DNA from: a virus | Reading direction: 5' to 3' (one strand) | Length of the DNA: 64,000 nt | Virus record (IMG/VR): IMGVR_UViG_3300026518_000011 | Coordinates: 9,929-73,928 of that record | Shown here: positions 40,094-63,621 of the stretch, in pieces | Numbering within the stretch: the first letter of the stretch is position 1 | Layout of the letters: the number at the start of each line of letters is the position of its first letter | Translations under genes and position numbers: made by a program | The notes under the pieces: generated by a model | What the model was told of the DNA's origin: nothing | What the model saw: the letters and a program-made list of their open reading frames with translations, nothing else | Database searches by the model: none

Positions 40094-41365
40094 TCAAGCC
40101 GATGAGTGACTATCCACATATGCACGGACGGTAGGAGTGGGGGTTTTGATCTCACCAATGGCTTCCCCATTTTGGGAAACTGCTGCTAATTGAACCTGCT
40201 CCGATGGGTTATCTATAAATTTAATGGCTTCCCCATTTTGGGAAACTGCTGCTAATTTAACCTTTTCGGATGGGGTCTTAATATATTTAATAGCATTTCC
40301 ATTTTGGGAAACTGCGGCTAATTGAACCTTTTCGGATGGGGTCTTAATATCGTAAATAGCATATCCATATTGGGAAACTGCGGCTAATTGAACCTTTTCG
40401 GATGGATTTCTGATATAGGCAAGGGGCGCTCCATTTTGGGAAACGGCGGCTAATTGAACCTGCTCTGATGGATTATCAATAAACTGGATGACATACCCAT
40501 TTTGGGAAACTGCTGCTAATTTAACCTTTTCGGATGGGGTCTTAATATATTTAATGGCTTCCCCATTTTGGGAAACTGCGGCTAAATAGAATGCCTCAGA
40601 TGGATTTGGTATAAATTGAATTAGCTCAATAAACCCACCCATAATCCATTTCTCAAAAGGTAATTTAGTGGATGTCCACTTCGCGGCTTCAAATTCTTGA
40701 TAATCATCCTGAGTGATTTTTTCATCTTGATCATTCAGAAATTGTGAAGATTCAACATGCAGTTGTAATTTCGTCCCATTATGAATAATAACGTATAATG
40801 GGCCTGTTTTAGAATAATGATCAAAATAATTTTCACTATCAGTAGCAGCCGTGCACCATCTGGTCCCCCTACCCCAAAAAATTGATGCTTCCTCAGTTTC
40901 AGGAATCACAATCATCCCGTCTTGTCCCTGATAGACCATTTTAGATTGATTTAATATCTCTTGTTTATATGCTCGTTGTTGAGCTTTGCCACTTATTGGT
41001 TCATCGGCATCTTTAAATTCATCTACAAGTTGCTCTAATTGTGATAACGATTTGATCTGTCCAAGATCTTTGATCGATAATTTAGATTTGAATTTATTGA
41101 ATAGATTCAATGCCATTTGTAATCTACTGAAGTCTTCGTATCGACGAATTCCACCTTTTAGATATGTTCTGATGATCCATAAAGTGTATGACTGATTACG
41201 AGATGGATCAACATTAATAGCGTGATTTATGAACCCCTTAATAGTGGTTTCATCAGGATCATTTTGAAACGATGGGTCATCAGATAGGCGATCATGCAGG
41301 CGGTTTCCCAATTGTAGATACGTTTTATCTACATCTACTGCTTCTATCAAATCTAATAATCTCAT
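40094..41365 (-). CDS. N-terminal WC-motif (PcfJ-like?) domain plus seven 22-aa helical repeats (DUF4116-like)
   Basis: MRLLDLIEA N-terminus; YTLWI, EEAS..WGRGTRWCTAA..NYFDHY..GPLY; repeats PSEKVQLAAVSQNG.AI.YI.(T/N). Confidence 0.7.
   Translation of the reverse strand: MRLLDLIEAVDVDKTYLQLGNRLHDRLSDDPSFQNDPDETTIKGFINHAINVDPSRNQSYTLWIIRTYLKGGIRRYEDFSRLQMALNLFNKFKSKLSIKDLGQIKSLSQLEQLVDEFKDADEPISGKAQQRAYKQEILNQSKMVYQGQDGMIVIPETEEASIFWGRGTRWCTAATDSENYFDHYSKTGPLYVIIHNGTKLQLHVESSQFLNDQDEKITQDDYQEFEAAKWTSTKLPFEKWIMGGFIELIQFIPNPSEAFYLAAVSQNGEAIKYIKTPSEKVKLAAVSQNGYVIQFIDNPSEQVQLAAVSQNGAPLAYIRNPSEKVQLAAVSQYGYAIYDIKTPSEKVQLAAVSQNGNAIKYIKTPSEKVKLAAVSQNGEAIKFIDNPSEQVQLAAVSQNGEAIGEIKTPTPTVRAYVDSHSSA
40142..40603 (-). 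repeat. 7 x 66-bp coding tandem repeat
   Basis: ttgggaaac(t/g)gc(t/g)gctaa recurs every 66 bp. Confidence 0.9.
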
Positions 41366-42082
41366 CTACTCTTCCCTATTGACCATACCCTGAGGGGAAT
41401 GAACGCTTTGGGGGCGGATGGACCCTGCCCCTCGCTTCATAATATTCCCACCAATGCTCTGAAATCCGTAACGCCCTAATAGATATACGATTTCTTCGGT
41501 CATATCAACTATCTGTATTGACAAATTTGCGGAGTTGTGGTCTGCTTCTGCTACTATCTGACTCAACATCGCTGATAATATCTGTCCACGATAGTTTTGA
41601 TCAGCATCAGTATCGTACTCTAGGTTGTTAATAACCCCATCGATGACTTTAGCAAATCCAATGGAGTTATCACGGTCATCTACTATCTCATATTCGTTAG
41701 ATAGGGTGCCAGCAAATGGTCTGCGGATGGTCTCCACCACTTTACGAGGATTTATCCTAGGTGGCTTCCCACGGGCACTGAGAGCCTTCACAGAGGCGAT
41801 CACCTGCTTCTTGGGGGGCCTACGGGACAATTTGATTTCTCGGTCCTCTACAGGACCATTCTGGAGGGGCATATCATCCTCTGGGCCGAAGTGATCCAAT
41901 GGTGCGAATGATGCAGACTCCTCAACATCAGCCTCTTTAGCCAATACTTTTTTATCCCGTCTAGCACCAATTCCTTGTGGTTCATCATAGGACTCCCACC
42001 CACCAACATACTTTTTAGGATCATCTGTGCCAGATGATTTCATTGTGGTGGGTGCAGCCGATTTTAGTTCATGCAGTTTCAT
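41366..42082 (-). CDS. late protein with MKLHEL tag and C-terminal GNAT-like domain
   Basis: YEIVD...IGFAKV...INNL...YRGQ.LS.ML...EAD...L...YGF follows the GNAT pattern; ATG at 42082 lies 5 nt after TAAATA. Confidence 0.55.
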   Translation of the reverse strand: MKLHELKSAAPTTMKSSGTDDPKKYVGGWESYDEPQGIGARRDKKVLAKEADVEESASFAPLDHFGPEDDMPLQNGPVEDREIKLSRRPPKKQVIASVKALSARGKPPRINPRKVVETIRRPFAGTLSNEYEIVDDRDNSIGFAKVIDGVINNLEYDTDADQNYRGQILSAMLSQIVAEADHNSANLSIQIVDMTEEIVYLLGRYGFQSIGGNIMKRGAGSIRPQSVHSPQGMVNREE

Positions 42083-42098
42083 GCTAATATTTAGCACA

Positions 42099-42272
42099 TT
42101 ACTTCACTGTGATTACACTCTCCAAGTCAGTAATGGCAGACGCAATCCACTTTCGTTGATCAACCTTCTGTGGATCACTACCACCTTTTGACTCGATTTC
42201 TTTAATCAGGTCATCCAACAGTTTCCAGTCGGCCTTGTATTCGTCAATAAGTGATTGCACTGTAATGGACAT
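42099..42272 (-). CDS. small hypothetical protein (57 aa)
   Basis: Hand translation MSITVQSLIDEYKADW...VITVK; AGGAG RBS within the end of the topoisomerase gene. Confidence 0.5.
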   Translation of the reverse strand: MSITVQSLIDEYKADWKLLDDLIKEIESKGGSDPQKVDQRKWIASAITDLESVITVK

Positions 42273-42275
42273 AAA

Positions 42276-43625
42276 TTATATCTCCTTTAGATATACTGAT
42301 TTCAATCGTTTAGGACTCTTAACGATCTTGCTATATTTAGTCAATGCAGATAATGCAGTTTTTAATTTTTGCTCTGCACCAACCTTGCCCTCTTTGGTAA
42401 ACCTATACACTGGCAGATTAACAATCTTGTCAACAACACTCTTATCTAAGGATAATGATTTTGCCAATATTGACTGCTCTACTCTATGGGTTAAATCTTT
42501 ACGTGTTTCAATATCATTGATAGATTCGGCAACTGGTGGACTATCCCCCACTGGATCAAAGCATGATAGAAAACATCGTTCATAATCGACTACTACATTC
42601 TCCTGTTGAATCATCCATTCATATCGCTGCACATACAAGGACAGTCGCCAATTAACAAAATCCGTAATCAAATCTTGTGCACTGTGATATTTGATCACAT
42701 GATCACCAGATGGACCCAATACTGTCAGATTTTCCGTTTCGCTAGTTATGATTTTGAACAGCACCAATAGCTTATCCCGTGTCATCCCCTCTAAATCCTT
42801 ACGAGCGAATTTAACCATAATGTCAATACCGTCCGTACTATTATCAACAAACGATTTTATACCACCAGTTTGCTCCAATTCAATTAATCTGGCTACCACT
42901 GTAGACAATGACATACTTGGGGGAATTTCGGTGATCCTAACAGTAGTAGTGTTGACGATGTCTACAATACCACGGATATAGTAACGATTAGGCTTGGAAT
43001 GATCGGGTATGATTTCGCAACCGTTCATGGTATAATACGGCAATACCCTTGATGTAACCTCTCCGTCGGTCAATACCTCGGATACTGCGGTTCTCAAGTC
43101 ATCGATATTCCGTGGCAAGATATTGGTGGCAAACCCAACTGCAATACCTCGGATGCCGTTCAATAGCACCAATGGCAATCTAGGCAGGAAGTTACGAGGC
43201 ATTTGTTTTGATCCATCATAGTTATCACACATTGGACAGATATCGATATCAATATATAATTCCTGCTCTGCGAGTTTCGATCTTCGAATTTCCGTATAAC
43301 GGGGTGCACCAATACCATCCACCGGAGACGTCCGTGTACCAAACGCTCCCTCACCCTGTAATAGTGGATAATTGTTCAGATATGGTGCGGCCAATCGAGA
43401 TAATGCGTCCCCCGCCGATGCGTCACCGTGTACATATAGCCCCGAACTCATCATATGTCCCACTACCCCAGCGGTTTTAACCGGCTTGACCTGATCCTTC
43501 ATCAACCATAGGGCTATCCGTTGTGACTGCTTTAGGCCATCGGTGATGGAGGGTATTGCTCTACTCTCCATCACATATGTTGAATATTCGTGTGATATGT
43601 TTAGGATATATTCACTTGTGGTCAT
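42276..43625 (-). CDS. DNA topoisomerase II, GyrA/ParC-like subunit (T4 gp52-like)
   Basis: RAIPSITDGLKQSQR, YVHGDAS, GAFG, GAPRY (catalytic Tyr), LLNG..GIAVGFATNI. Confidence 0.93.
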   Translation of the reverse strand: MTTSEYILNISHEYSTYVMESRAIPSITDGLKQSQRIALWLMKDQVKPVKTAGVVGHMMSSGLYVHGDASAGDALSRLAAPYLNNYPLLQGEGAFGTRTSPVDGIGAPRYTEIRRSKLAEQELYIDIDICPMCDNYDGSKQMPRNFLPRLPLVLLNGIRGIAVGFATNILPRNIDDLRTAVSEVLTDGEVTSRVLPYYTMNGCEIIPDHSKPNRYYIRGIVDIVNTTTVRITEIPPSMSLSTVVARLIELEQTGGIKSFVDNSTDGIDIMVKFARKDLEGMTRDKLLVLFKIITSETENLTVLGPSGDHVIKYHSAQDLITDFVNWRLSLYVQRYEWMIQQENVVVDYERCFLSCFDPVGDSPPVAESINDIETRKDLTHRVEQSILAKSLSLDKSVVDKIVNLPVYRFTKEGKVGAEQKLKTALSALTKYSKIVKSPKRLKSVYLKEI

Positions 43626-44254
43626 GCGTCAGCCAATGATGCTAGGATTTCATCTTCCACATCAGGGAAATGTTTACCAACGAATTGGATAACCTCCATG
43701 ACCGAAAATGCCGCACCATCACCACGATACGCCCCCACCGGACTATCTGAATATCCCGGAAATAAAGGGATATAGCCGTTTTTCCCAATCTTAGCACCGC
43801 TTGGTGTTGGAAAGAATACTCGCCGGATCGTAGTCTCGCCCATTACTTCGGATTCTGCCTGCTCTAGTGCACACCGGGTATATAACACCACAGCCCGTTG
43901 TTTAACCTCTAAGAGTGCTTCTGGGTCTTCAACACCCCGCTTTACCCCATACTTGGCTTTGCGTTCCCGTAGGGGCTGTATGGACTGCAACCAGTCCAGC
44001 AGAGTCATATCCCCGAGTTGGGTATAATCGAGGTTAATTCCCGAGGGCAGTTCCCCATGATTGTTATAAGCGGCCAGTTGGATTTCAAATGGGATGTCCG
44101 GCCCGCCCAGGTAGGCTTTGCTCAATCGGATATACTCATCCATGTCTGATTGGGACAGTGCGGCTTTATGGTCAACCGTGGACATACCCACATCAGCAGT
44201 GGGTGGAGTATCGGTGTCAGGGTATGTGATAACAGGGGATGCGGTAGTAGCCAT
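43622..44254 (-). CDS. hypothetical protein between the topoisomerase subunits
   Basis: AGGA RBS; ATGA overlap with the gp52-like gene. Confidence 0.55.
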   Translation of the reverse strand: MATTASPVITYPDTDTPPTADVGMSTVDHKAALSQSDMDEYIRLSKAYLGGPDIPFEIQLAAYNNHGELPSGINLDYTQLGDMTLLDWLQSIQPLRERKAKYGVKRGVEDPEALLEVKQRAVVLYTRCALEQAESEVMGETTIRRVFFPTPSGAKIGKNGYIPLFPGYSDSPVGAYRGDGAAFSVMEVIQFVGKHFPDVEDEILASLADA

Positions 44255-44287
44255 ATTATTGGTCCTATAGGGTTGAATTATTTATGA

Positions 44288-46189
44288 TTATGATAGCCAC
44301 TTTTGCCTATCTTTTGATCGAGTTGGATTAAAAATCAAATCTATGGACTCCGATAATTTACCATCATCCAGTAGTGGAACCAACTTCGGAGCAACCAACA
44401 GGGTTTTCCAATCTGCCTGTGTCAATCTGGCCAAGCCCTTAGCACGAATGATTTGCCAACCTTTCCAGTCAGATGGGTCAAAATTCGCGTAATCCGAATC
44501 ATATACATATTGTCGGTCTTTACCTTTAACTAATATCACCAATGGGGTATCGAAATCGAAAATGAACGGATTGTTGCTATCCATAAAGAGTTCGGGCCAA
44601 TGGGTATGAAAGAATGCAACCAACTGGGATGTGATATTTTTACCATCATGATCAGCATCAGTAGTTATATAAATCTTCCCATACCTAAGATGCATCCGAT
44701 TTGCGGGTTCCCCGAGTTTCAAACCAATCGCAGTCATAATATTGGTTAATGACTCGCTGGCCAGAATGGCTTTTGGGGTAGCCCCGTGGGTGTTCATGAC
44801 TTTCCCACGTAATGGAAGCCCACCATGAATCGTGGCATCCCTTGCGGATACGATGCCCGACAACGCCGACTCTCCCTCAGTGATATACAGGATACACTTC
44901 TGCCGATTTTTTCCCGTAGCGTCTCTAAGAGTTGGAATCTTGGTTTTTGATAATTTCTTTTGGTCCTGTTTCAGTTGCCTACTATTCGTTGCCTGTGTCC
45001 GGCGACTGCAACGATCTATTACGTCAGCCACCCATTTAGGATTCTTTCTAATAAACCCCTTCACATCGGATTCAAAAAAACCGGATTTGATTTCAGATTT
45101 AATCTCCGACACCAATCGGGTCTTAGACTGAGAATCGAAATGTGGATCATCCATCACGGTGATATTATACAGCAATACCCCATGAGTGACATCTTTACGT
45201 GTCAATATTGGAGGACCATTAGGTTTGATCTTCAATGCTGCCTTTGCCGTTGTGTCCAAATGCTTAATCAATCCGGTGTAAAACAGATTACGAAATTCGT
45301 CTACATGGGGACCGCCTAGGAATGTTGGAATATTGTTGACCAAACTATGAATGTGCTCGTCATCTACCACTCCAGTAACTGCATAAAATTTGGCATGGAC
45401 CCGATCAGTCTGAGTCTCTAACATTACCGGAATGTGACCAACTGTATTAGGTGGGAACATGGTTGATATCACTGGGTCACGACCTTCATTTAATCGCAAC
45501 TTGCTGCCGTTGAACCACACAGAAACATCGGGATTGGCTATAGCAATGTCCCACACCCGTGACTCAATGAACTCCAACGGAAGTTCCATAATAGGCCATA
45601 CCTTTCGGGATGGCACGAATACCACTTGGGTCCCGGTGAATCCATCAGTGCACGGTTCAGTAATAGGACCATTAGTTTTATGGATATCAACCTTTCGATA
45701 AACCCCTTCGGTCCACGATTGACTAAAATGGGTGTTATCCCGCCATATCTGTAGATCAAACCGCTCAGACGCAAAATTGACAATGGCTGCACCTAACCCA
45801 TTAACCCCTGCAACCGTTCCACGTTCATCAAAATTCCGACCACTTCTGGGATTACTCATCATATATGATGCAGCAGGCCCCTTACCGACTGATGGAATCT
45901 CGTGGATAGGTATCCCACGACCATTATCTTTAACCTCAACCCGTAATGTATCAGGGTCGTATGAAATCCAAATCGTATCGCCATGACCGTGCGCAGAAAT
46001 TTCATCCATTGAATTATCAATGATCTCTCTCACTGCGGTGTATAGGCTCGGGACCCATGTGAGTTCTTTAATCTCAACAACGGACCCATTAAAACACATC
46101 ACATTTTGTGTATGTGGCTCACGTGATCCCAAATACATCTCCAGTCGAAGTCTAGCGTGATTATAGTCCGACAAAGTGCGTTCAGTCAT
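44288..46189 (-). CDS. DNA topoisomerase II, GyrB/ParE-like subunit (T4 gp39+gp60 unsplit)
   Basis: EIIDNSMDE, DNGRGIP, SGRNFD, GVNGLG, TEGESA, PLRGK, TDADHDG, KGLA. Confidence 0.93.
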   Translation of the reverse strand: MTERTLSDYNHARLRLEMYLGSREPHTQNVMCFNGSVVEIKELTWVPSLYTAVREIIDNSMDEISAHGHGDTIWISYDPDTLRVEVKDNGRGIPIHEIPSVGKGPAASYMMSNPRSGRNFDERGTVAGVNGLGAAIVNFASERFDLQIWRDNTHFSQSWTEGVYRKVDIHKTNGPITEPCTDGFTGTQVVFVPSRKVWPIMELPLEFIESRVWDIAIANPDVSVWFNGSKLRLNEGRDPVISTMFPPNTVGHIPVMLETQTDRVHAKFYAVTGVVDDEHIHSLVNNIPTFLGGPHVDEFRNLFYTGLIKHLDTTAKAALKIKPNGPPILTRKDVTHGVLLYNITVMDDPHFDSQSKTRLVSEIKSEIKSGFFESDVKGFIRKNPKWVADVIDRCSRRTQATNSRQLKQDQKKLSKTKIPTLRDATGKNRQKCILYITEGESALSGIVSARDATIHGGLPLRGKVMNTHGATPKAILASESLTNIMTAIGLKLGEPANRMHLRYGKIYITTDADHDGKNITSQLVAFFHTHWPELFMDSNNPFIFDFDTPLVILVKGKDRQYVYDSDYANFDPSDWKGWQIIRAKGLARLTQADWKTLLVAPKLVPLLDDGKLSESIDLIFNPTRSKDRQKWLS

Positions 46190-46203
46190 TCGTAACCCCC
46201 ATA

Positions 46204-47247: not shown

Positions 47248-47285
47248 TACCAATATGTAGTATACCAATTGTCAATAACAAGGCA

Positions 47286-47846
47286 TCATGACCGCTTATG
47301 TTTGAATTTTTGTCCAGGTTTCACTTTGGATTGCGGCTGCTTCCTCACCTTAGGCTTCCCACCTTTAGTGGCAGGATTGGATTTCACTGCCGCCTTCTTA
47401 TATTTCATGACCTCATTTACAAACGATTGCATTTCATATGCAGCAATAATTGTAGGGTCACTAGGGTTAGTCCTACGAGCCAATGTCTGTTGATCGATCT
47501 TAATTTGAATTTGATTAGCTAAGTTAGATAGGGCCTGCATATCCATATCCATGATCACTGCCGGATTGGTAATTGCAGACGGATTGTCATGCACATAGTT
47601 CTGGATATAGTTGTGCCCCTGCAACCTGCTCATCAGATCGCTGTCTACGGGCTTGTCAGGACCACCAGTGGCATCCGGTCCCCCCATGCCCATATCAGCA
47701 TCAGGGACATTCTCAGGCCCCTCAGATGACCCACGTTGTGCTGCAATGTCATCAGGGTCAAGGCTCCCATCGTTTTTGATGTCCTTGGAGGTTTTTTCCA
47801 ATTCACGATCAATAGGATTTTGTGGGTTCAGTTCATATAGTTTCAT
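47286..47846 (-). CDS. late protein with MKLYEL tag and basic C-terminus
   Basis: ATG lies 5 nt after TAAATA (47852-47857). Confidence 0.6.
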   Translation of the reverse strand: MKLYELNPQNPIDRELEKTSKDIKNDGSLDPDDIAAQRGSSEGPENVPDADMGMGGPDATGGPDKPVDSDLMSRLQGHNYIQNYVHDNPSAITNPAVIMDMDMQALSNLANQIQIKIDQQTLARRTNPSDPTIIAAYEMQSFVNEVMKYKKAAVKSNPATKGGKPKVRKQPQSKVKPGQKFKHKRS

Positions 47847-47850
47847 ATTC

Positions 47851-47858
47851 GTATTTAG
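47851..47858 (-). promoter_or_regulatory. T4-like late promoter CTAAATAC (representative of about 23 copies)
   Basis: TAAATA starts at 349, 3963, 4014, 6703, 7595, 12456, 14892, 16089, 17676, 20672, 25671, 26541(+), 29343, 33738, 39142, 42088, 47852, 50633, 52042, 52842, 53155, 59050, 59072(+), 59597(+); each listed copy is upstream of and oriented with a gene. Confidence 0.75.
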
Positions 47859-48604: not shown

Positions 48605-48634
48605 CCATCCTATATAAGTCGATGTTAGCCTTGA

Positions 48635-53319: not shown

Positions 53320-55086
53320 TTATGCCCCCTCAATTTGATAGGGTATTTGCTTGAAGGTAACGCCAGCCTCTGCCAGTCGTTCCTTGTCCACGGTGCATCC
53401 TTCGCCATAGACAATCCAGCCGCCCTCAAACCCATCGGGGGGCGCTGGCAGTGCCGCCATTGTATCAGGCGTCAACACATTGCCAGACGCTTCCCGAGCA
53501 AAGCCGGGTTCAGCGGGGGAGAAAAGTAAATAGACCGCTTTGTCCTGATAGTGCCCCAAATAAGGGGAGTCCCCCAAGGCATTGGACGGGATTGGCACAC
53601 CGCATTCGGCAAAGAACACATGGGCGGCCAAGTCGGGGAAAGTCACACCGCCGTCGATATCACCAAATTCGTTGAAGAGTGGCACGCCAAGGCGGCAATA
53701 GCGGAAACCGCCGCCAAGCCCATCCACGGGTTTGGCAGGCTCGCCGCCTTTGTTATAGCCATGGATCACACGTTTTAGCCGTTCGGCAGTGATATCAGGG
53801 GCAATCTGTTCATCCATTTCCACAAGAATGAATTTGCGGTTGCCGCCATCTTGTTTGTTGAGGTCAAGAACAGCGTGGCCTGTGGTGCCAGAGCCGGCGA
53901 AGGAATCTAGGATTAGGTCGTTAGGACTCGTCGCAACTTGAATGAGGTAAGAGATCAATTGTTTTGGCTTGGGATACGTGAACGATAGCCCCATGTCTTC
54001 GATTTCAGATCGCATCTTTTCTGTGGTGCTGAACCCGCGAAGCACTGAAAGAATGTTTCGAGTGGTTTTTGGCTTGTCTTTTCGGTAATAAATCACTCCG
54101 CCAGAAGACAAATAAAATGTCATTGTAGAACCGTCGGATTCCTTAATCGGTAAACAGCCGTTGTCTATAAATGCTTTCAACTTTTTAACATTTGCCCATC
54201 CTGAATAGACGCGGCATCGAGCAGTTAACGCGCCATCTCTGGCTACCATCTTGTCAAAGCGAAGTGGAAAACTAATCCCAGGAAAACGACGTTTTAGAGG
54301 ATTGCTTGACATACCCTCAACCATCGCTTCGATCAGCCCGTCCGGCACCAAGGACACGTCCAAATACAATTCAGCTGATTGAACTGGGAACCCAACTGGT
54401 AACACAACTTCACTAGGTGGGTTTGCCTTCCCGTTTTTAGTTATCGAATTCTCAGCGAACCCAGCCCATACATTGCTTTCTTCGCGAGTATTTGGGTCGA
54501 TTACATATCCAAACTCGGCATCAACTGGATTTTTCGCATAGCACAACACATACTCGTGGTTCACTTTGACAGCGTGCTGGTTACCCGTATGCCCATCGGT
54601 ATTCCAAATAAAATTGGTGACAAAACCGCGACGTCCAAAAATTTCATCCAGAATCGAACGAAGCGATTGTGACTCATTGTCGTCATGGCTTATTAAAATC
54701 AGGCCATCTTCACGGAGGAATTCTCGCAGCAATCGCAGGCGAGGATACATCATGCACAACCATTTGTCATGACGTGACAAATCTTCCCCTTCTTTCATTA
54801 CCTCTTTGTCTAACCATGCTCTTATTTCTGGTGAATTGACGTTGTCATTATATGACCAGTTTTCGTTACCAGTGTTATAGGGTGGGTCGATATAGATGCA
54901 TTTCACCTTGCCCGCGTAATAGGGCAACAGGGCTTTCAGCGCCTCAAGGTTGTCGCCCTGCACCAGCAGATTGCCCGCATCGGCGTCCCCTGTAGACAGG
55001 TCGCCATCACAATGCACCAACCGATACGGCACTTCGCGGTGATGATTAACGACGGCTTTCTTACCGATCCAGTCTAACGTGGGCAT
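53320..55086 (-). CDS. mod: type III R-M Mod subunit, beta-class N6-adenine DNA methyltransferase
   Basis: MPTLDWIGK, NLLVQGDNLEAL, YIDPPYNTG, WLCMMYPRL, YPKP..LI, ILDSFAGSGTTGHA, GGGFRY, FKQIPY. Confidence 0.93.
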   Translation of the reverse strand: MPTLDWIGKKAVVNHHREVPYRLVHCDGDLSTGDADAGNLLVQGDNLEALKALLPYYAGKVKCIYIDPPYNTGNENWSYNDNVNSPEIRAWLDKEVMKEGEDLSRHDKWLCMMYPRLRLLREFLREDGLILISHDDNESQSLRSILDEIFGRRGFVTNFIWNTDGHTGNQHAVKVNHEYVLCYAKNPVDAEFGYVIDPNTREESNVWAGFAENSITKNGKANPPSEVVLPVGFPVQSAELYLDVSLVPDGLIEAMVEGMSSNPLKRRFPGISFPLRFDKMVARDGALTARCRVYSGWANVKKLKAFIDNGCLPIKESDGSTMTFYLSSGGVIYYRKDKPKTTRNILSVLRGFSTTEKMRSEIEDMGLSFTYPKPKQLISYLIQVATSPNDLILDSFAGSGTTGHAVLDLNKQDGGNRKFILVEMDEQIAPDITAERLKRVIHGYNKGGEPAKPVDGLGGGFRYCRLGVPLFNEFGDIDGGVTFPDLAAHVFFAECGVPIPSNALGDSPYLGHYQDKAVYLLFSPAEPGFAREASGNVLTPDTMAALPAPPDGFEGGWIVYGEGCTVDKERLAEAGVTFKQIPYQIEGA

Positions 55087-55271: not shown

Positions 55272-55367
55272 TTTGATCTCCTATCATGCAAGATATTGGG
55301 GAATTGTTGCGACTACTTGGGTTGGTGCCCCAAGCGGAAAAACAAGGGGGTTATGTCCGCCATTATA

Positions 55368-55400
55368 ATACTATACTGGATTACAACCATCGGGACTTGC
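55368..55400. repeat. right direct repeat (att-like)
   Basis: Overlaps the last codons and stop of 55381-55692. Confidence 0.9.
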
Positions 55401-58267: not shown

Positions 58268-58374
58268 TCCCTAACATATGGCAATGATCAGCAAATTAGT
58301 CAATCCGCAATATGGATAATGTGGATTGTGAACTACCCAGTTGCATTAGCTACTGGGTTTTATTGGGCGCATAA

Positions 58375-59016
58375 TCATAAAGTGGTTATGTTAGCGGATC
58401 GCATGAAATGCTCTAATGCATCCAATTGTGCGAGATTGGCCGAGCGCTCTACCGGACCAACGACTGTTCCGGCAACCATTCCCATTTTTGACAAAACTGT
58501 TGGTCCCGCCCCTGCAGCAATCGTAAAACTCTTACCTTCATTGCCTGCAGTATTCCGAAACCCAATACCACCACTTTGGGTGACATAGGATTCAACCGAG
58601 ATAGCAGTAATCAACTGACCATTAATATCTGCAACAACCGCGCCCATACTGACATATGGGGCTGCAGCCATAACTACTGCATCAGTCCCATTAGCATCGG
58701 TAATACTGATGGTATCCCCATTAGCAACAGCAGCATTAAAATGATCAATATTCCCCATAACATTTGCCCGCAGGTCGCCCCGCAGGTGACCAGTGGGTGC
58801 TGCTGCCAACATACGAGCCATGGTATACTGAAATACGCGTGATTGCTCATCGGTAGTCATTTCTGCCATAAATGCTCGCATAGACTCGATCAGAGTGAGT
58901 AAACTTTGCTCAAAGGGGGAATTGCGCCGGACTGGATCAATTGCCAGATATTCTGGTTCATTGATAACATTGGTTGCATATAGTGGTAATACATTTGCAG
59001 TGAATTGGATAGCCAT
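58375..59016 (-). CDS. late structural protein with flagellin_IN-like module
   Basis: Start MAIQF; GDTISI...AVVADIN...L.KMGM.AGT; divergent TAAATA pair. Confidence 0.55.
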   Translation of the reverse strand: MAIQFTANVLPLYATNVINEPEYLAIDPVRRNSPFEQSLLTLIESMRAFMAEMTTDEQSRVFQYTMARMLAAAPTGHLRGDLRANVMGNIDHFNAAVANGDTISITDANGTDAVVMAAAPYVSMGAVVADINGQLITAISVESYVTQSGGIGFRNTAGNEGKSFTIAAGAGPTVLSKMGMVAGTVVGPVERSANLAQLDALEHFMRSANITTL

Positions 59017-59049
59017 GGATAAAGTTCCCTTAAATATTTGGTTCAACTA

Positions 59050-59077
59050 TATTTAGGGAAAGCGGTTGTACTAAATA
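59050..59077. promoter_or_regulatory. back-to-back late promoters
   Basis: TAAATA on minus (59050-59055) and on plus (59072-59077) between divergent genes. Confidence 0.65.
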
Positions 59078-59101
59078 TGGTTGATATAGGAGTTTGCGCC
59101 A

Positions 59102-59599
59102 ATGACTACAAATTATAATACACAATATAACATACCCGTGGTGCAAGTCCAAGCACCTGGTAGACAAAATCGTCTAACGGATGGTGATTTCAGAATCACC
59201 CCTAGCATGACTGAGCCAGTGGAATTCTCGTTCGGTAACCAAGATGGGGTTCCATTAAAACTGGTGGGATTTCGACTGCAATTCGTAGTATGGGAGCACA
59301 GCCCAACCTCCCACCAATCTATCACCATCGGTCAGTCAAACGTCATCATCAATAAACTGATTAGGATAGATGACCCATATTCGGGCAAGGCAAACCTATT
59401 ACTGACCGAACAGGACACCACCACGATTGGTAATCACAGCATTGGGCAAAATATATATTGGTCACTATTCATGATCAATGATGATGAGCAGGTATTTCCG
59501 CTACAGGTGAGTCAATCGGGTGGTAGATATGGCAGCATCAATGTTGACCGCACGGGACACTTGCCCATTGCAGAGCTTATTAGGCACCCAACACTCTAA
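59102..59599 (+). CDS. structural protein (baseplate/BppU-like Ig fold?)
   Basis: VEFSF.NQDG.P.KL.G...F......I.DPYSG...L.L...D; late promoter. Confidence 0.5.
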   Translation: MTTNYNTQYNIPVVQVQAPGRQNRLTDGDFRITPSMTEPVEFSFGNQDGVPLKLVGFRLQFVVWEHSPTSHQSITIGQSNVIINKLIRIDDPYSGKANLLLTEQDTTTIGNHSIGQNIYWSLFMINDDEQVFPLQVSQSGGRYGSINVDRTGHLPIAELIRHPTL

Positions 59600-59624
59600 A
59601 TACGGATAACGAGGAAATAATACC

Positions 59625-60248
59625 ATGGTAGCTCTAGCATATGAGGATTTAGGCGGCATTAGTAGTGTTGCAGACAATCCCAAAGTTCCGGCATCAATTC
59701 GAAGCCGCGATCGTAATGACAAGCAGCGGTTTGCATTCCAATGTGACCCCGCCCGCCCTTTTACCGGAATCATCCATGTGCAGGCTGCAGTAGGCAATCC
59801 CAGTAAATCAACAACTGACACTATCTGGTTTGATATTGCAGAAATGATTATCGATGAGGAGGGCGGTAGCTGGTCGTATGAGGCAATTGGTGAGTTTTCC
59901 TCAGTCAGAGTAGTGTGCAAAGCGGGAAATTACTGGTCAGCGGCACATGGATCATCAGCAGCAACGGTAGCAGCGAACGGCAATTTTACAATCAATGGTA
60001 TTAACATCGCAGTGACTGCTGGAGATGATGCAGCAACAGTCGCTGGTATCATCAATGCCAATGCAGGTATCATCCTAGATGGAACCATTAAAGCGGATGT
60101 GATCAGTCCCACCAGTCTGAGGATATACAAGACCGATGGTGCGGACCTATTACTGGTTGATACTACTAATACCCCGCTGGCCGATTTGGGCATTTCCGCA
60201 GGAACATTCCGTGGTGGGGTAATCACCAAAATTCAGATGCTAAGGTAA
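59625..60248 (+). CDS. structural protein with flagellin_IN-like module
   Basis: FTGIIHVQA...WFDI...GEFSSVR; FTINGINIAVTAGDDAATVAGIIN...LADLGISAGT. Confidence 0.55.
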   Translation: MVALAYEDLGGISSVADNPKVPASIRSRDRNDKQRFAFQCDPARPFTGIIHVQAAVGNPSKSTTDTIWFDIAEMIIDEEGGSWSYEAIGEFSSVRVVCKAGNYWSAAHGSSAATVAANGNFTINGINIAVTAGDDAATVAGIINANAGIILDGTIKADVISPTSLRIYKTDGADLLLVDTTNTPLADLGISAGTFRGGVITKIQMLR

Positions 60249-60254
60249 TCATAC

Positions 60255-62639
60255 ATGTCAGTCACAATCAATTCAGGCGTGAGTGGAACCGCCAGCTTCG
60301 AAACTAGTCTAACCAAGGCACCACTGGTATATAATGACCCGAATGGGTCATCCACCGCTGGGTCTGGAACCATCCCCATTAGTCAAGTAATTGGTCTATC
60401 TGCCACGCTGGATGGTAAATTAAATGACTCATTAGGCCCAATCGGAATTACCAACGTATTCACTAGTGGAACCGATTTAAACTTACTGGCCGGAACAGCA
60501 GCATACGGTCTTACACAAACCGATTTGCAAAAACTGGCGGACCTCAATGCTTCCACCAGTGAACTGAATTATTCAATCGGTGTTACCTCACCAATTCAAA
60601 CCCAAATCGATAATGCATACTCAGCAACCGATTTTACCGCTGCTGATCAAATGATCATATCAGCAGGCGCGGGACTTGGTGTCATAGACACTATAGCTAA
60701 TGTGTTAAACGGAACCACAGGGGTTGGATACGATTTTTCGTCCCTCAAAGCGCCAACAAGTAATTTAGATTTCAACGGGATGGGCGGAATCAACCTACTT
60801 GATCCCACTAACCCACAAGATGCAGCCACCAAAACATATGTAGACTCGGCGGTCCTCGGTGGAGGCTCATTCCTACCCCTGTCAGGCGGGACTATGACCG
60901 GCACAATTGATGTTGATGGTAACTCCATTCAGCTAGACCCCACGGGCGGAACCACGATATCCGCTGCTGTTGATAATACGGTGATATTGGATGTGTCTGG
61001 CACCACCTACACATGGACTGTCACCGGTATTAATATGGGCAGCAAAGCGATTTTCAGTCTATTAGACCCAATCAATCCACAAGATGCTGTCACCAAGAAT
61101 TATTCCGATACTACATATCTCCCACTGACTGGTGGGACAATGACTGGTAGTATCACCATGGGGGGAAACAATATTATCACATCCCCAGATGGGAATACCT
61201 CATGGGATTTCAGTGTTAATGACCAAATAACATTGACACTGGGGACAGGCACACCTGTGGTTTTCGGCAGTAATATTGATACCGGCGGACTGGATGTGGC
61301 CAATCTACCCACGGTGCCTACAACCGCATTGTCTGCAATTACCTCAACATATTCTGATGGACATTATGTCAAATTGGATGGCACCAATACCATGACCGGT
61401 AATATCAATTTGGGAGGAAACAATGTTTCGAACATTACCAATCCCACCGTCGGCACCGAAGTTGGTAATCGCAATTATAATGACGCCAGATACCTACAGA
61501 TCACGAATAACCTCTCAGACCTAACAAGCACATCCGTTGCTAGGACTAATCTCGGGCTGGCAACCATTGCCTCTACGGGAAGTTATGCAGACCTTATCGG
61601 TGCACCATCCACGGTTTCAGTAATGAATGATCTGTCTGACGTATCTACAGGAACCCCAACCATTGCTGAAAATGGATACGTGGTAACGTGGAATAATGCA
61701 GGAAGTGCATATAACCTATTACCAGCCCCCGTAAGCAGCCTGTATGGGCGCACAGGAGCCGTTGTAGCAGTCACGGGTGACTATACCGCCGCTCAGGTAT
61801 CCTTTGCCCCTACTGGCCATATCGCAGCAACTGATGCACAATTGGCAATACAGGAATTGGATACCGAAAAGCTGGCAGTAGATGGGTCCCAACCCATGAC
61901 TGGTAATCTAAACCTCAATGGCAATTCGATTACCAATGCTGCCCTACCCATGACAGTTGGCACACATGGATTTACCACAGGGAGTTATCAATCCACCTCC
62001 GGTGGGAACTCATTTTTGATCCGCACCAGCAGCGTCGCCAACGCTTCAACACCAACCTACTCCTTTGTATCACAACCTACCTCCGGTATATGGATGAATG
62101 GTAGCGATCTCACAATATCCATTGGTGGATCAACGGAACTGGCAGTATCATCCACACGAATTAGTGCGATGAACAAACCGATTAAAGATGTGGCCAACCC
62201 TACTGCGGTAGGGGATGCGGTCAACCTAGGTTATGTTAACTCATTAGGAATGCAGAGAGTGCTTGGATCAACCGTGGGGATTGATCTAGTTGGTGGAGCC
62301 GTGGGGTCTACCACAGCCGTGTACACCTTACCCGTGGGGAAACAACACATCATCACTCAGATCATTCTAGTAGCATCATCGTATAACCCAGGGGCGCTCC
62401 CTGTAGACCCAGTTGTGTCCGTCGGTGTCACAGGCGGTACATATGATGATATTGTTGCAGGGACAACACTCAGTTGGGGGCTGTCTGGTGCAGCAGATCA
62501 AGCCGTGTATCTTAATCCAAAACAAGGCGCTACAACCCCAAATGCTACCAATACGGTGACCCTCCAATTAGACACCCCCGCTGGGGGGACATTCGGGGCA
62601 TTAGTGGTCGATGTTTATGTTATGGGGGTTGAACTATAA
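60255..62639 (+). CDS. tail fibre protein
   Basis: Repeated LLDP.NPQDA.TK.Y, LPL.GGTMTG.I, NNLSDL...ARTNLGL, VSSLYGRTGAV modules. Confidence 0.75.
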   Translation: MSVTINSGVSGTASFETSLTKAPLVYNDPNGSSTAGSGTIPISQVIGLSATLDGKLNDSLGPIGITNVFTSGTDLNLLAGTAAYGLTQTDLQKLADLNASTSELNYSIGVTSPIQTQIDNAYSATDFTAADQMIISAGAGLGVIDTIANVLNGTTGVGYDFSSLKAPTSNLDFNGMGGINLLDPTNPQDAATKTYVDSAVLGGGSFLPLSGGTMTGTIDVDGNSIQLDPTGGTTISAAVDNTVILDVSGTTYTWTVTGINMGSKAIFSLLDPINPQDAVTKNYSDTTYLPLTGGTMTGSITMGGNNIITSPDGNTSWDFSVNDQITLTLGTGTPVVFGSNIDTGGLDVANLPTVPTTALSAITSTYSDGHYVKLDGTNTMTGNINLGGNNVSNITNPTVGTEVGNRNYNDARYLQITNNLSDLTSTSVARTNLGLATIASTGSYADLIGAPSTVSVMNDLSDVSTGTPTIAENGYVVTWNNAGSAYNLLPAPVSSLYGRTGAVVAVTGDYTAAQVSFAPTGHIAATDAQLAIQELDTEKLAVDGSQPMTGNLNLNGNSITNAALPMTVGTHGFTTGSYQSTSGGNSFLIRTSSVANASTPTYSFVSQPTSGIWMNGSDLTISIGGSTELAVSSTRISAMNKPIKDVANPTAVGDAVNLGYVNSLGMQRVLGSTVGIDLVGGAVGSTTAVYTLPVGKQHIITQIILVASSYNPGALPVDPVVSVGVTGGTYDDIVAGTTLSWGLSGAADQAVYLNPKQGATTPNATNTVTLQLDTPAGGTFGALVVDVYVMGVEL

Positions 62640-63049
62640 TGGATGCAGTTTTGATGAAACAAATTGAAGAAACCCGTGACAAACACGAGTTTCTTACCTT
62701 TCTGATCATCAAGGACCCCAAGGGCGATACACCCACATGGAGGTGTGGGGTGGTCCAACACTGTAATAATCGATTTATCACCTTTTATGACTTTAATAAG
62801 ATTCGTAACGAAGGTTCCCGTAAAACGTTTTTGGAATATGCTGATCGATGGTGGTGGGAATCTGGTATGTCACTACCAGTAGATTACTATATTGGCAAGG
62901 ATTTCGATATTTTCCAAGACGCACTGGTTACTATACCACGAAAGACGCTAGAACGTGACCCAATCGGCCCAACCTATTCGTTAGCAGACCATTATCTCAA
63001 ACGGGTGAAGAAGCGCAAAATCGATCTCGTCACTCGCAAGCATATATAA
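62639..63049 (+). CDS. hypothetical protein (WWWES motif)
   Basis: FLT...CGVVQ...TFYDF...FL..A..WWWES..SLP. Confidence 0.6.
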   Translation: MDAVLMKQIEETRDKHEFLTFLIIKDPKGDTPTWRCGVVQHCNNRFITFYDFNKIRNEGSRKTFLEYADRWWWESGMSLPVDYYIGKDFDIFQDALVTIPRKTLERDPIGPTYSLADHYLKRVKKRKIDLVTRKHI

Positions 63050-63054
63050 CTGAT

Positions 63055-63621
63055 ATGAAACTACACGAACTTGTCAAACATCCATTAACGGATTTCCGAA
63101 CCTTTATGGGCGGAGATGATGCTCCATATAATCGTGACGACATTGAGGTATATTTTTATCGCCACGGATTTACTTCAATGGGGAGCGGATCATTCGCTAC
63201 GGTAATGGAGCACCCAAAACTTCGGTATGTGATCAAGGTATTCGATTACAAAGATCAAGGGTATCCGGCCTTTCTAAAATTCATAGAACAATATCCTGAA
63301 TCCAAATACCTACCCAAATTCATTGGGAAGCCCATGAAGGTGCTGGATTCGGTATATGCGATTCGGGTGGAAAAATTATCCAAAAATATCCCTCCTTGGT
63401 TCCAAGACATTTTTAGTTCACTTCGTGGTGTAATGCGGAGTCCACGATATGAACAGGGTATTATCAACGCAGAAGAGGAACACCCCAAAGAATTAGTAGA
63501 ACTAGTACAAGCATTATCACTATATGCGGAGCAACACCGATTGGCAGATGATCTACGATGGGGTAATATTATGATGCGTGGGGATGTCCCCGTTATCACC
63601 GACCCTTATGTCAAATTGTGA
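63055..63621 (+). CDS. Ser/Thr protein kinase, T7 gp0.7 kinase-like, with MKLHEL tag
   Basis: MGSGSFATV (Gly loop), HP...VIKV (Lys), YLPKF, DLRWGNIMMRGDVPVITDP, close to T7 kinase DMHSGNIM..GDVPYITDP as recalled. Confidence 0.8.
   Translation: MKLHELVKHPLTDFRTFMGGDDAPYNRDDIEVYFYRHGFTSMGSGSFATVMEHPKLRYVIKVFDYKDQGYPAFLKFIEQYPESKYLPKFIGKPMKVLDSVYAIRVEKLSKNIPPWFQDIFSSLRGVMRSPRYEQGIINAEEEHPKELVELVQALSLYAEQHRLADDLRWGNIMMRGDVPVITDPYVKL

What the first reader, a model, noticed from the sequence alone, without database searches (positions are those of the whole stretch)
40094..63621. Candidate capsid-packaged effector set: four unrelated late proteins share an N-terminal M(K/R)Lx(E/D)L tag
Seen: MKLHELKS (42082), MKLYELNP (47846), MKLHELVK (63055) and MRLLDLIEA (41365) start four otherwise unrelated proteins spread over 23 kb. 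All four lie in TAAATA-driven units: two directly under the box, two downstream in an operon. Their bodies are a GNAT-like fold, a basic low-complexity protein, a T7-like protein kinase, and a WC-domain plus variable-repeat protein. Established: T4 internal proteins carry a short N-terminal capsid-targeting sequence that the gp21 protease removes at (L/I)xE, and they are injected with the DNA (for example IPI*). Inference: this phage uses a portable address tag to load host-modifying enzymes (phosphorylation, acetylation, protein binding) into the head, so they act before any phage transcription. Late expression is otherwise odd for host-takeover enzymes.
Basis: partly seen in the sequence, partly recalled or inferred. 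Interest (0 to 1): 0.82.

Follow-up and report, generated by a model that had tools for sequence, protein, structure and literature searches.

The report
Virion-packaging tag on jumbo-phage enzymes
Four unrelated proteins of this giant-phage fragment, including a kinase and an acetyltransferase-like protein, start with the same short peptide; in a cultured relative every annotated protein with that peptide is in the published virion proteome, so it is most likely a tag that loads them into the virus particle.

Summary
Four genes start M[KR]Lx[ED]L (41365-, 42082-, 47846-, 63055+). About 0.02 such starts are expected among 89 ORFs.

The window is 64 kb of a 74-kb fragment (CheckV completeness 19%) of a T4-superfamily jumbo phage. 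It is syntenic with two ~370-kb IMG/VR phages and more distantly related to Agrobacterium phage Atu_ph07.

- **Lineage-wide tag:** the two IMG/VR relatives have 12-16 and 10-12 tagged ORFs (about 0.2 expected). Orthologues of three of the four window genes keep the tag.
- **Protein-level signal:** the codons vary freely while the residues stay the same.
- **Cleavage-like motif:** tags with Glu at position 5 read L-x-E at 3-5. Tags with Asp at 5 usually have Glu at 8 (L-x-E at 6-8). L/I-x-E is the T4 prohead-protease site, and the relatives encode that protease.
- **Proteome test:** in Atu_ph07 all 5 annotated tagged proteins are among the 131 of 714 proteins in the published virion proteome (P=2e-4). 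One is encoded directly after the portal gene.

Fold searches support a protein kinase and a GNAT domain as cargo.

Packaging, cleavage and injection remain unmeasured for this phage. The concept is known from the T4 capsid-targeting sequence, so this is a new variant. Earlier agents of this scan reported similar tags in other jumbo-phage genomes.

The parts
41339..41365 (-). Tag of P0001: MRLLDLIEA, the Asp5/Glu8 form with L-I-E at residues 6-8.
   Evidence: Translation. The same extended form M[KR]LxDL[FLIM]E recurs in G1 and Atu_ph07.
40094..41338 (-). Body of P0001 (423 aa in all): an N-terminal domain with a GTRWC motif, then seven DUF4116-type 22-aa repeats.
   Evidence: Pfam DUF4116 at E=2.6e-14 and phrog_17056 at E=6.5e-50. 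66-bp unit in 6.5 copies at 40157-40585. The G2 homologue (621 aa) lacks the tag.
42065..42082 (-). Tag of P0002: MKLHEL, the Glu5 form with L-H-E at residues 3-5.
   Evidence: Ten of 18 database homologues start M[KR]LxEL. The G2 orthologue starts MKITEL.
41366..42064 (-). Body of P0002 (238 aa in all): a conserved but predicted-disordered N-terminal half and a C-terminal GNAT-like domain.
   Evidence: AlphaFold model with pLDDT about 90 over residues 125-220. Nearly all listed Foldseek PDB matches are GNAT acetyltransferases, best E=4.6e-5. Longer homologues carry PF00583/PF13508.
42088..42094 (-). CTAAATA box exactly 5 nt upstream of the ATG at 42082. Probably a late promoter giving a leaderless or near-leaderless mRNA.
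   Evidence: In G0, 16 of 19 CTAAATA copies lie within 80 nt upstream of an ORF start on the same strand.
47829..47846 (-). Tag of P0003: MKLYEL.
   Evidence: The first six residues fit M[KR]Lx[ED]L in all nine family members down to 41% identity. Orthologues start MKLFEL in G1 and MKLYEI in G2.
47286..47828 (-). Body of P0003 (186 aa in all): conserved N-terminal block, acidic linker, helical middle and basic C-terminal tail. It lies between two exonuclease genes. Candidate internal, DNA-binding virion protein.
   Evidence: Alignment A1. Neighbours hit phrog_298 and phrog_107 exonucleases. Synteny is kept in G1 and G2.
47852..47858 (-). CTAAATA box exactly 5 nt upstream of the ATG at 47846.
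   Evidence: The same CTAAATA-N5-ATG layout occurs in orthologues L001 (79% identity), L002 (45%) and G1 at 171144, with different spacer bases.
63055..63072 (+). Tag of P0004: MKLHEL.
   Evidence: Orthologues start MKLHEL or MKLYEL (P0005, P0006), MKLNEL (G1) and MKLFEL (G2). One 58%-identical homologue (P0007) lacks the first 17 residues.
63073..63621 (+). Body of P0004 (188 aa in all): a minimal protein-kinase-like domain.
   Evidence: phrog_15752 at E=1.5e-11. Gly45, Lys61, Asp166, Asn171 and Asp183 are invariant across six orthologues. Model pLDDT 83 and pTM 0.79; the listed PDB matches are protein kinases apart from one aminoglycoside phosphotransferase.
59071..59077 (+). CTAAATA box at the head of the + strand gene row 59102-63621, which ends with the kinase gene. 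A second box lies at 59596-59602.
   Evidence: The ORF map shows gaps of 25, 6, -1 and 5 nt between the five genes. The operon is inferred from this layout.

Best explanation
M-[KR]-L-x-[DE]-L-(hydrophobic)-(E) is a protein-level N-terminal address tag used by this lineage of T4-superfamily jumbo phages: G0, the IMG/VR phages G1 and G2, Atu_ph07, and probably Phosso and Vibrio phage 2.275.O.

Proposed mechanism:
1. The tag forms a short amphipathic helix.
2. The helix docks the newly made protein onto the assembling prohead core, as the T4 capsid-targeting sequence does, so that unrelated proteins are built into the particle.
3. Almost every tag contains one L/I-x-E, at residues 3-5 or at 6-8, so the T4-type prohead protease (Peptidase_S77) probably clips the tag after that Glu.
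4. In this window the cargo would be a minimal protein kinase, a GNAT-domain protein, a DUF4116-repeat protein and a small protein with a basic tail.
5. These proteins would then travel with the DNA.

What is shown:
- The tag is real, lineage-wide and selected at the amino-acid level.
- Tagged proteins of the cultured relative are in its virions.
- The relatives encode the protease and the T4-type head module.

What is inferred:
- Location inside the head.
- Cleavage of the tag.
- Packaging in this particular phage.
- Ejection into the host and any early action there.
For: 1. **Enrichment at N-termini.**
   - G0: 4 of 89 N-termini against 1 of 624 internal Met.
   - G1: 12 of 514 against 3 of 2951 (P=3e-8).
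   - G2: 10 of 462 against 1 of 2359 (P=1e-7).
2. **G1 and G2 are true relatives.** 56 and 48 of the 89 G0 ORFs have hits in them, in synteny, at mean 49% and 38% identity.
3. **Amino-acid-level selection.** Arg is coded by AGA, CGA, CGG, CGC and AGG. Leu is coded by all six codons. Leu fills 30 of 36 cases at position 3 and at position 6.
4. **Tag kept in orthologues.**
   - Kinase: MKLHEL, MKLNEL, MKLFEL.
   - P0003: MKLYEL, MKLFEL, MKLYEI.
   - P0002: MKLHEL, MKITEL.
5. **Either/or Glu rule.** Glu8 occurs in 12 of 20 Asp5 tags but in 1 of 16 Glu5 tags (Fisher P=0.0013). 28 of 36 tags have [LIVMF]xE within the first 9 residues.
6. **Head module in relatives.** G1 and G2 encode portal, Peptidase_S77, scaffold and Gp23. 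Their major capsid proteins and that of Atu_ph07 contain L-M-E followed by N-A where the T4 propeptide ends.
7. **Virion proteome of Atu_ph07.** gp43, gp199, gp548, gp561 and gp672 are all the annotated CDSs that start with the motif. All five are in Table S5 of PMC6102473, which lists 131 of 714 proteins (hypergeometric P=2e-4). The Phe3 variant gp46 is also listed, giving 6 of 6 (P=3.5e-5).
8. **Link to the head.** gp199 (77 aa) is encoded directly after the portal gene, where T4 has the core proteins gp67 and gp68. Its homologues in Vibrio phage 2.275.O (MKLVELFEA) and CBB (MLDEIFEA) carry the same kind of N-terminus.
9. **Cargo types.** ART-PolyVal in three copies (E=1e-73), a second ART-PolyVal, a PARP-like protein, GNATs, kinases and an HExxH protein. 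Iyer et al. proposed such domains as parts of injected polyvalent proteins (cited in PMC7824862).
10. **Precedent.** T-even internal proteins share only an N-terminal packaging signal (PMC12373910; PMC3012670; PMC9958956).
Against: - No virion data exist for G0, G1 or G2.
- G0 lacks the head genes and the protease because it is a fragment with 19% estimated completeness.
- The Atu_ph07 particles were only PEG-purified, and the list contains probable contaminants such as ribonucleotide reductase, a RecA-like protein and an SSB. gp199 rests on a single peptide.
- The proteome does not say where in the particle a protein sits, and gives no N-terminal peptides, so cleavage is untested.
- The five Atu_ph07 proteins have no Pfam domain and are not homologues of the G0 cargo. 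The link to G0 is the tag alone.
- Eight of 36 tags have no L/I-x-E. These include MKLSDLRRP, MKLKDLLPD and MKLIDLMRH.
- The Rak2-like phage CBB shows no enrichment (10 hits against 15 in the control).
- Tagged genes are scattered among replication genes, not clustered at the head module.
- Only 5 of 26 tagged ORFs in G0-G2 have CTAAATA within 80 nt upstream.
- The G2 homologue of P0001 and one kinase homologue (P0007) lack the tag.
Confidence: 0.65

Rival explanations
1. The tag is a virion-assembly motif but does not mark ejected head cargo. It would anchor proteins to some other part of the particle, such as the outer capsid, the whiskers or hairs, or the tail. The tagged proteins would then be structural or surface-displayed, not delivered into the cell.
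For: - The Atu_ph07 proteome shows presence in particles but not location.
- Atu_ph07 has complex whisker-like appendages, and 102 of its 131 virion proteins have no assigned function.
- gp43 and gp46 lie in the CDS 31-76 cluster, which includes a tail-fibre-like protein, gp31.
Against: - gp199 and its homologues are encoded between the portal and prohead-protease genes.
- The Glu5/Glu8 rule fits a Glu-specific internal head protease.
- Cytoplasm-acting enzyme folds (kinase, GNAT, ADP-ribosyltransferase) make little sense on the outside of a particle.
Confidence: 0.15
2. The shared start is a nucleotide or translation signal. Two of the genes would be leaderless mRNAs starting at the ATG, and ATGAAACT..GAACT would be an initial-transcribed or downstream-box element. 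The peptide would then be a by-product.
For: - CTAAATA-N5-ATG precedes 42082 and 47846 and is conserved in three orthologues of the 47846 gene.
- The three MKL genes of G0 share ATGAAACT and GAACT.
Against: - Across 36 tagged ORFs the codons differ widely while the residues are kept.
- Most tagged genes have no CTAAATA-N5.
- CTAAATA-N5-ATG also precedes untagged genes: three in G1 and two in G2.
- 41365 has a different DNA sequence, a purine-rich stretch just upstream and a start abutting the preceding stop codon.
Confidence: 0.04
3. The tag is recognised by a chaperone or an unfoldase-protease (host or phage ClpX/ClpA, DnaJ/DnaK). It would act as an N-terminal degron or folding signal that times the activity of potentially harmful enzymes, with no role in packaging.
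For: - Met-basic-hydrophobic N-termini resemble one class of ClpX N-terminal recognition motif (my own knowledge, not tested here).
- Atu_ph07 encodes ClpX, ClpB, ClpP and a Clp adaptor.
- A DnaJ-like gene lies next to P0001 at 39230-40033.
- PMC7824862 speculates that phage Clp ATPases could translocate proteins into heads.
Against: - G1 is 93% complete and has 12-16 tagged ORFs, yet has no ClpP and no AAA_2 match.
- A degron does not explain why 5 of 5 tagged proteins are found in virions.
- A degron does not explain the either/or L-x-E rule.
Confidence: 0.07
4. The resemblance is chance or ordinary N-terminal composition, since Met-Lys-Leu starts are common in bacteria.
For: - Lys at position 2 and Leu are frequent in general.
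- The motif was defined after the sequences had been seen.
Against: - 0.01-0.02 cases are expected in G0. In this phage position 2 is mostly Ser or Ala, and Lys occurs in 7 of 89 ORFs.
- Enrichment was found independently in G1, G2 and Atu_ph07 using the regular expression already fixed on G0.
Confidence: 0.01

Closest known systems
Capsid-targeting sequence (CTS) of phage T4: the N-terminal propeptides of internal proteins IPI-III, Alt and gp24, removed by prohead protease gp21
   Same: - A short N-terminal peptide shared by otherwise unrelated proteins.
- It starts Met-Lys/Arg, is amphipathic and acidic, and contains L/I-x-E.
- The lineage has a T4-type head module with Peptidase_S77.
- Tagged proteins are found in virions of a relative.
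- The cargo includes host-modifying enzymes, as Alt is in T4.
   Different: - The consensus is different, M[KR]Lx[DE]L(F/L)E, and it comes in two registers for the Glu.
- The presumed propeptide is shorter, 5 or 8 residues against 10-20.
- There are more tagged genes per genome, 10-16.
- They are scattered through the genome rather than gathered in an ip locus.
- The cargo is dominated by enzymes (kinase, GNAT, ART-PolyVal, HExxH) rather than small restriction inhibitors.
- Targeting, cleavage and injection have not been tested.
Propeptide-processed ejection and inner-body proteins of phiKZ-like giant phages (phiKZ gp175, SPN3US gp245; PMC5694885)
   Same: - A giant phage in which many head-internal proteins are processed after Glu by a gp21-related protease.
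- Some of those proteins are ejected into the host.
   Different: - Those propeptides are mostly longer than 100 residues, and the motif is A/S/G-x-E.
- They share no common N-terminal tag.
- The lineage is different, with no T4-like replication module.
Polyvalent proteins of phages and conjugative elements (Iyer et al. 2017, cited in PMC7824862)
   Same: - The same effector domain types, ART-PolyVal and GNAT, proposed to be delivered with the DNA.
- G1 has a 1160-aa tagged protein with three ART-PolyVal domains.
   Different: - Polyvalent proteins are single giant multidomain chains, typically linked to MuF or portal-associated domains.
- Here most effectors are separate small proteins, each with its own tag.

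Membership tests
T4-type capsid-targeting sequence (CTS) cargo | A short N-terminal peptide shared by proteins that are otherwise unrelated | tested here: met
   4 ORFs in G0, 12-16 in G1, 10-12 in G2 and 5-8 in Atu_ph07, with different bodies.
T4-type capsid-targeting sequence (CTS) cargo | Sequence similarity to the T4 CTS itself | not tested
From memory, the T4 tag shares the Met-Lys start and the acidic amphipathic character, but not the consensus. This is a resemblance, not homology.
T4-type capsid-targeting sequence (CTS) cargo | The peptide ends in the protease site L/I-x-E | tested here: met
   28 of 36 tags have [LIVMF]xE in the first 9 residues. Glu8 is coupled to Asp5 (12 of 20 against 1 of 16, P=0.0013). 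Eight tags have no such site.
T4-type capsid-targeting sequence (CTS) cargo | The genome encodes a gp21-type prohead protease (Peptidase_S77) with scaffold and Gp23 capsid protein | tested here: inconclusive
   Met in G1, G2 and Atu_ph07. Absent from G0, but G0 is a fragment with 19% estimated completeness that lacks the whole head module.
T4-type capsid-targeting sequence (CTS) cargo | Tagged proteins are present in purified virions | tested here: inconclusive
   Met in the relative Atu_ph07 with published ESI-MS/MS data: 5 of 5 tagged proteins against a background of 131 of 714 (P=2e-4). No virion data exist for G0, G1 or G2.
T4-type capsid-targeting sequence (CTS) cargo | The tag is sufficient and necessary for packaging, and the protease removes it | not testable with these tools
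   This needs reporter fusions, tag deletions and N-terminal proteomics.
T4-type capsid-targeting sequence (CTS) cargo | The cargo is injected with the DNA | not testable with these tools
   This needs infection experiments.
Protein kinase-like fold (P0004) | Bilobal kinase fold with a Gly-rich loop, the VxK lysine, a catalytic D-x4-N and a metal-binding Asp | tested here: met
   Model pLDDT 83. The listed Foldseek PDB matches are protein kinases apart from one aminoglycoside phosphotransferase, best E=1.9e-4. Gly45, Lys61, Asp166, Asn171 and Asp183 are invariant. The 188-aa domain is smaller than classical kinases. Activity was not tested.
GNAT acetyltransferase fold (P0002) | GNAT core sheet and helices with an acetyl-CoA-binding motif | tested here: inconclusive
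   The C-terminal ~100 aa match GNAT structures, best E=4.6e-5, with TM-scores of 0.4-0.5 on the target. Pfam finds nothing in P0002 itself. The model covers only part of a full GNAT domain.

The most novel reading that the evidence does not exclude
In the Atu_ph07-like branch of the T4-superfamily jumbo phages, the packaged protein cargo can be read from sequence. Any ORF starting M[KR]Lx[DE]L, with one L-x-E at residues 3-5 or 6-8, would be loaded into the prohead core, trimmed by the prohead protease and delivered with the DNA. That would mean each phage injects 10-16 separate enzymes, including a minimal protein kinase, GNATs, ADP-ribosyltransferases and metallopeptidase-like proteins. This would be a far larger and more enzymatic injected arsenal than the T4 set of Alt plus the internal proteins, and a natural portable tag for loading foreign proteins into jumbo-phage heads.
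Probability: 0.45. Interest if true: 0.72.

Novelty: new variant of a known kind. Interest (0 to 1): 0.6.

Why it matters
- **Predictable cargo.** If the tag works as proposed, the set of proteins a jumbo phage carries into the cell could be predicted from its genome alone, including for uncultured phages.
- **First-minute biology.** The predicted set is rich in host-modifying enzymes (kinase, acetyltransferase, ADP-ribosyltransferases). These would act in the first minutes of infection, where counter-defence is decided.
- **A testable rule.** The signal is a simple 8-residue peptide in a cultured phage-host pair, Atu_ph07 on Agrobacterium. It is also a candidate tool for loading foreign proteins into large capsids.
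- **Missed genes.** The tag flags at least two ORFs that the Atu_ph07 annotation lacks.

Tried and rejected
- **Close relatives.**
  - A megablast of 8 kb against the phage collection found nothing.
  - tblastn of P0002 and P0003 against phages found nothing. P0004 hit only the untagged kinases of Rhizobium phage RHph_I1_18.
  - IMG/VR scans with P0003, P0004, alignment A1 and the topoisomerase found no relatives. Only alignment A3 found G1 and G2.
  - The metagenome scan gave two short contigs. These were useful only for the conserved CTAAATA-N5-ATG.
- The longer contigs behind the database homologues (110 kb, 94 kb, 51 kb) could not be read.
- **T4 late promoter.** TATAAATA gave 2 hits against 4.4 expected. 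The recurring box is CTAAATA instead.
- **Nucleotide-level explanation.** Rejected on codon diversity.
- **Leaderless layout as cause of the tag.** Rejected, because the N5 spacing also precedes untagged genes.
- **Rak2-like phage CBB.** No enrichment of the motif, so the tag is not general to all Rak2-like phages.
- **Atu_ph07 cargo.** Pfam found no domain in its tagged proteins.
- **Portal-adjacent small protein.** No homologue found in G0, G1 or G2 by tblastn.
- **Kinase.** A PDB sequence search gave nothing, and only the fold search worked.
- **Phage-encoded Clp as tag reader.** Absent from G1.
- **XacN1 virion proteome.** It is shown only in a figure and was not used.

Full report
**What the window is.** The window is bases 9929-73928 of a 73,928-bp virus record with no terminal repeat. 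CheckV estimates the record at 19% complete.
- It encodes a split topoisomerase II, a DnaB-like helicase, a primase, exonucleases, a 1762-aa ribonucleotide reductase and tail-fibre-like proteins.
- The large topoisomerase subunit is 44% identical to those of Sinorhizobium phage Phosso and Agrobacterium phage Atu_ph07.
- The record is therefore a fragment of a T4-superfamily jumbo phage. No head gene lies on it.

**The observation.**
- In all six frames of the record, the relaxed motif M[KR][LIVM]x[ED][LIVM] occurs five times. Four of these are the first ATG of a long ORF.
- Position 2 of this phage's proteins is mostly Ser or Ala. The expected number of such starts in 89 ORFs is 0.01-0.02.
- The motif is at 4 of 89 N-terminal Met against 1 of 624 internal Met.

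- A profile of the P0002 family found two IMG/VR phages: G1 (375,937 bp, 93% complete) and G2 (360,469 bp, 91% complete).
- I fetched both in full.
- 56 of the 89 G0 ORFs have hits in G1 and 48 in G2, in the same gene order, at mean 49% and 38% identity. They are true relatives.

**The tag is lineage-wide and acts at the protein level.** I applied the regular expression already fixed on G0.
- G1 has 12 tagged ORFs by my gene calls, and 14-16 by the six-frame scan. G2 has 10 and 11-12.
- Against internal Met the enrichment gives P=3e-8 for G1 and P=1e-7 for G2.
- Orthologues keep the tag:
  - the kinase starts MKLHEL in G0, MKLNEL in G1 and MKLFEL in G2;
  - P0003 starts MKLYEL, MKLFEL and MKLYEI;
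  - P0002 starts MKLHEL in G0 and MKITEL in G2.
- All nine database homologues of P0003 fit M[KR]Lx[ED]L, down to 41% identity. Ten of 18 P0002 homologues start M[KR]LxEL.
- Across 36 pooled tags, Arg uses five codons and Leu uses six, yet Leu fills 30 of 36 cases at positions 3 and 6.
- A promoter, initial-transcribed or downstream-box signal therefore cannot explain the conservation.

**Anatomy of the tag.** The consensus is M-[KR]-L-x-[DE]-L-(F/L/I/M/V)-(E).
- Of 20 tags with Asp at position 5, 12 have Glu at position 8. Of 16 tags with Glu at 5, only one does (P=0.0013).
- So nearly every tag carries one L-x-E, at residues 3-5 or at 6-8. 28 of 36 tags have [LIVMF]xE in the first nine residues.
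- The T4 protease and the related giant-phage proteases cut after Glu. The 10-20-residue T4 propeptides of gp24 and the internal proteins are its capsid-targeting sequences (PMC5694885; PMC9958956).
- G1, G2 and Atu_ph07 encode portal, Peptidase_S77, scaffold and Gp23 in the T4 order.
- Their capsid proteins read L-M-E followed by N-A near residue 50, where a propeptide would be expected to end.

**An empirical test in a cultured relative.** A loose nucleotide version of the motif is enriched in some isolates and not others.

| Phage | Hits | Control |
|---|---|---|
| Atu_ph07 | 31 | 8 |
| Phosso | 21 | 11 |
| Vibrio phage 2.275.O | 15 | 6 |
| CBB (Rak2-like) | 10 | 15 |

- Atu_ph07 has a published virion ESI-MS/MS list of 131 of its 714 proteins (PMC6102473).
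- I fetched the whole annotation. The paper's gp number equals the row number of the CDS table. I checked this with gp70, gp132, gp141, gp180, gp198, gp215, gp288, gp327, gp329, gp472 and gp691.
- The annotated CDSs that begin with the motif, and their entries in the virion list, are:

| Protein | N-terminus | Unique peptides | Coverage |
|---|---|---|---|
| gp43 | MRLIDLLES | 2 | 24% |
| gp199 | MKLTELFNP | 1 | 27% |
| gp548 | MRLSEILEE | 3 | 40% |
| gp561 | MRLIDLLED | 7 | 52% |
| gp672 | MRLIDLLEH | 3 | 23% |

- All five are in the list (for the starts). The hypergeometric probability is 2e-4.
- With the Phe3 variant gp46 (MKFIDI), which is also listed, the result is 6 of 6 (P=3.5e-5).
- Two further tagged ORFs are not annotated (22449-22868 + and 315248-315526 -, the latter starting MRLFDLFEK), so they could not have been detected.
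- One possible alternative start (483591, MKIGEM) was not detected. Counting it as a miss still gives P about 1e-3.

**Link to the head.** gp199 is a 77-aa protein encoded directly after the portal gene.
- Its homologue in Vibrio phage 2.275.O starts MKLVELFEA, and the one in CBB starts MLDEIFEA.
- From my own knowledge, T4 has the prohead-core proteins gp67 and gp68 in that position.
- No homologue of the small protein was found in G1 or G2.

**Cargo.**
- P0004 folds as a minimal protein kinase: pLDDT 83, with the listed PDB matches being protein kinases apart from one aminoglycoside phosphotransferase. The Gly-loop, Lys61, Asp166, Asn171 and Asp183 are invariant.
- P0002 has a disordered but conserved N-terminal half and a GNAT-like C-terminal domain.
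- P0001 has DUF4116 repeats encoded by a 66-bp array.
- P0003 is a conserved small protein with a basic tail, lying between two exonuclease genes.
- In G1 the tag sits on a 1160-aa protein with three ART-PolyVal domains (E=1e-73), on a second ART-PolyVal protein, on a PARP-like protein and on an HExxH protein. In G2 it sits on a GNAT protein and on two neighbouring genes that share 15 of their first 16 residues but differ afterwards.
- These are the domain types proposed for injected polyvalent proteins (PMC7824862).

**Expression.** CTAAATA behaves as a promoter box.
- 16 of its 19 copies in G0 lie within 80 nt upstream of an ORF start on the same strand.
- The spacing has two modes: exactly 5 nt, and 18-36 nt.
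- 42082 and 47846 have the 5-nt spacing. For 47846 it is kept in three orthologues with different spacer bases.
- If transcription starts where it does at T4 late promoters, these mRNAs would begin at the ATG. This step is inferred.
- The same layout precedes untagged genes, so it is a separate feature from the tag.
- Late timing of 41365 and 63055 rests on operon-like layout only.

**Rivals.**
- Chance is excluded by the replication in three further genomes.
- A nucleotide or translation signal is excluded by the codon diversity.
- A Clp or chaperone degron does not explain the presence in virions, and G1 has no ClpP or AAA_2 ATPase.
- The remaining serious rival is a virion-assembly motif that places proteins somewhere other than inside the head. 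The proteome cannot tell the two apart. The portal-adjacent family, the Glu rule and the cytoplasm-type enzymes favour the head interior.

**Limits.**
- Nothing was measured for this phage.
- The Atu_ph07 preparation was PEG-purified and contains probable contaminants.
- The Atu_ph07 tagged proteins are not homologues of the G0 cargo.
- Eight of 36 tags have no L-x-E site.
- Some homologues lack the tag.

**Comparison and novelty.**
- That T-even internal proteins share only an N-terminal packaging signal is established (PMC12373910; PMC3012670).
- New here are a different consensus with two Glu registers, a distant jumbo lineage, ten or more tagged genes per genome scattered through it, and mostly enzymatic cargo.
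- I found no description of this motif in the Atu_ph07 paper or in the paper on the related Sinorhizobium phage AP-J-162.
- Earlier agents of this scan reported comparable tags in other jumbo-phage genomes, two of them with the same kind of proteome check. I saw those notes after my own test.

Noticed in passing
window 42083-42094 and 47847-47858 (- strand); L001:184-199; L002:404-419; G001:C1:171132-171146: CTAAATA lies exactly 5 nt before the ATG, with no Shine-Dalgarno sequence. The layout is conserved in orthologues down to 45% identity while the spacer bases differ. This suggests leaderless late mRNAs. G1 has five such genes and G2 two, and most of them are untagged.
   Followed up: partly
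MF403008.1 (Atu_ph07) 22449-22868 (+) and 315248-315526 (-): Two unannotated ORFs of 139 and 92 aa start with the tag (MRIIDLEY, MRLFDLFEK). They are probably real genes missed by the annotation, and so were absent from the published mass-spectrometry search database.
   Followed up: partly
G002:C1:313344-314201 and 314198-315058 (+): Two adjacent genes share 15 of their first 16 residues (MKL[IL]DLMRHTRIDEAP) but then diverge completely. The second has an HRIGH motif. This looks like recent transfer of the tag between neighbouring genes.
   Followed up: no
window 33776-39064 (-): A 1762-aa ribonucleotide reductase large subunit, about twice the usual length. It has inner stretches that hit endonuclease and terminase PHROGs, so it probably contains inteins.
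   Followed up: no
window 39230-40033 (-): A DnaJ-like J-domain protein is encoded directly downstream of the tagged DUF4116 gene. Atu_ph07 also encodes DnaJ beside a Clp ATPase.
   Followed up: no
G001:C1:15495-22886 (+): Three tagged or tag-like genes lie in a row: a 1160-aa protein with three ART-PolyVal domains (MRLFDLFEA), a ~250-aa ORF (MKITDL), and a 1054-aa protein starting MKLQYLTEA. The last is a variant that the regular expression misses. G2 has a further variant, MKLVQLFEQ, at 311081. The counts given are therefore conservative.
   Followed up: partly
window 53320-55086 (-): A 588-aa ORF lies in the stretch that an earlier first-reader note called a type III methyltransferase. I did not examine it.
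   Followed up: no
G000:C1:1-200 (outside the window): The record begins with sequence that looks like tRNA genes. I did not run a tRNA scan.
   Followed up: no
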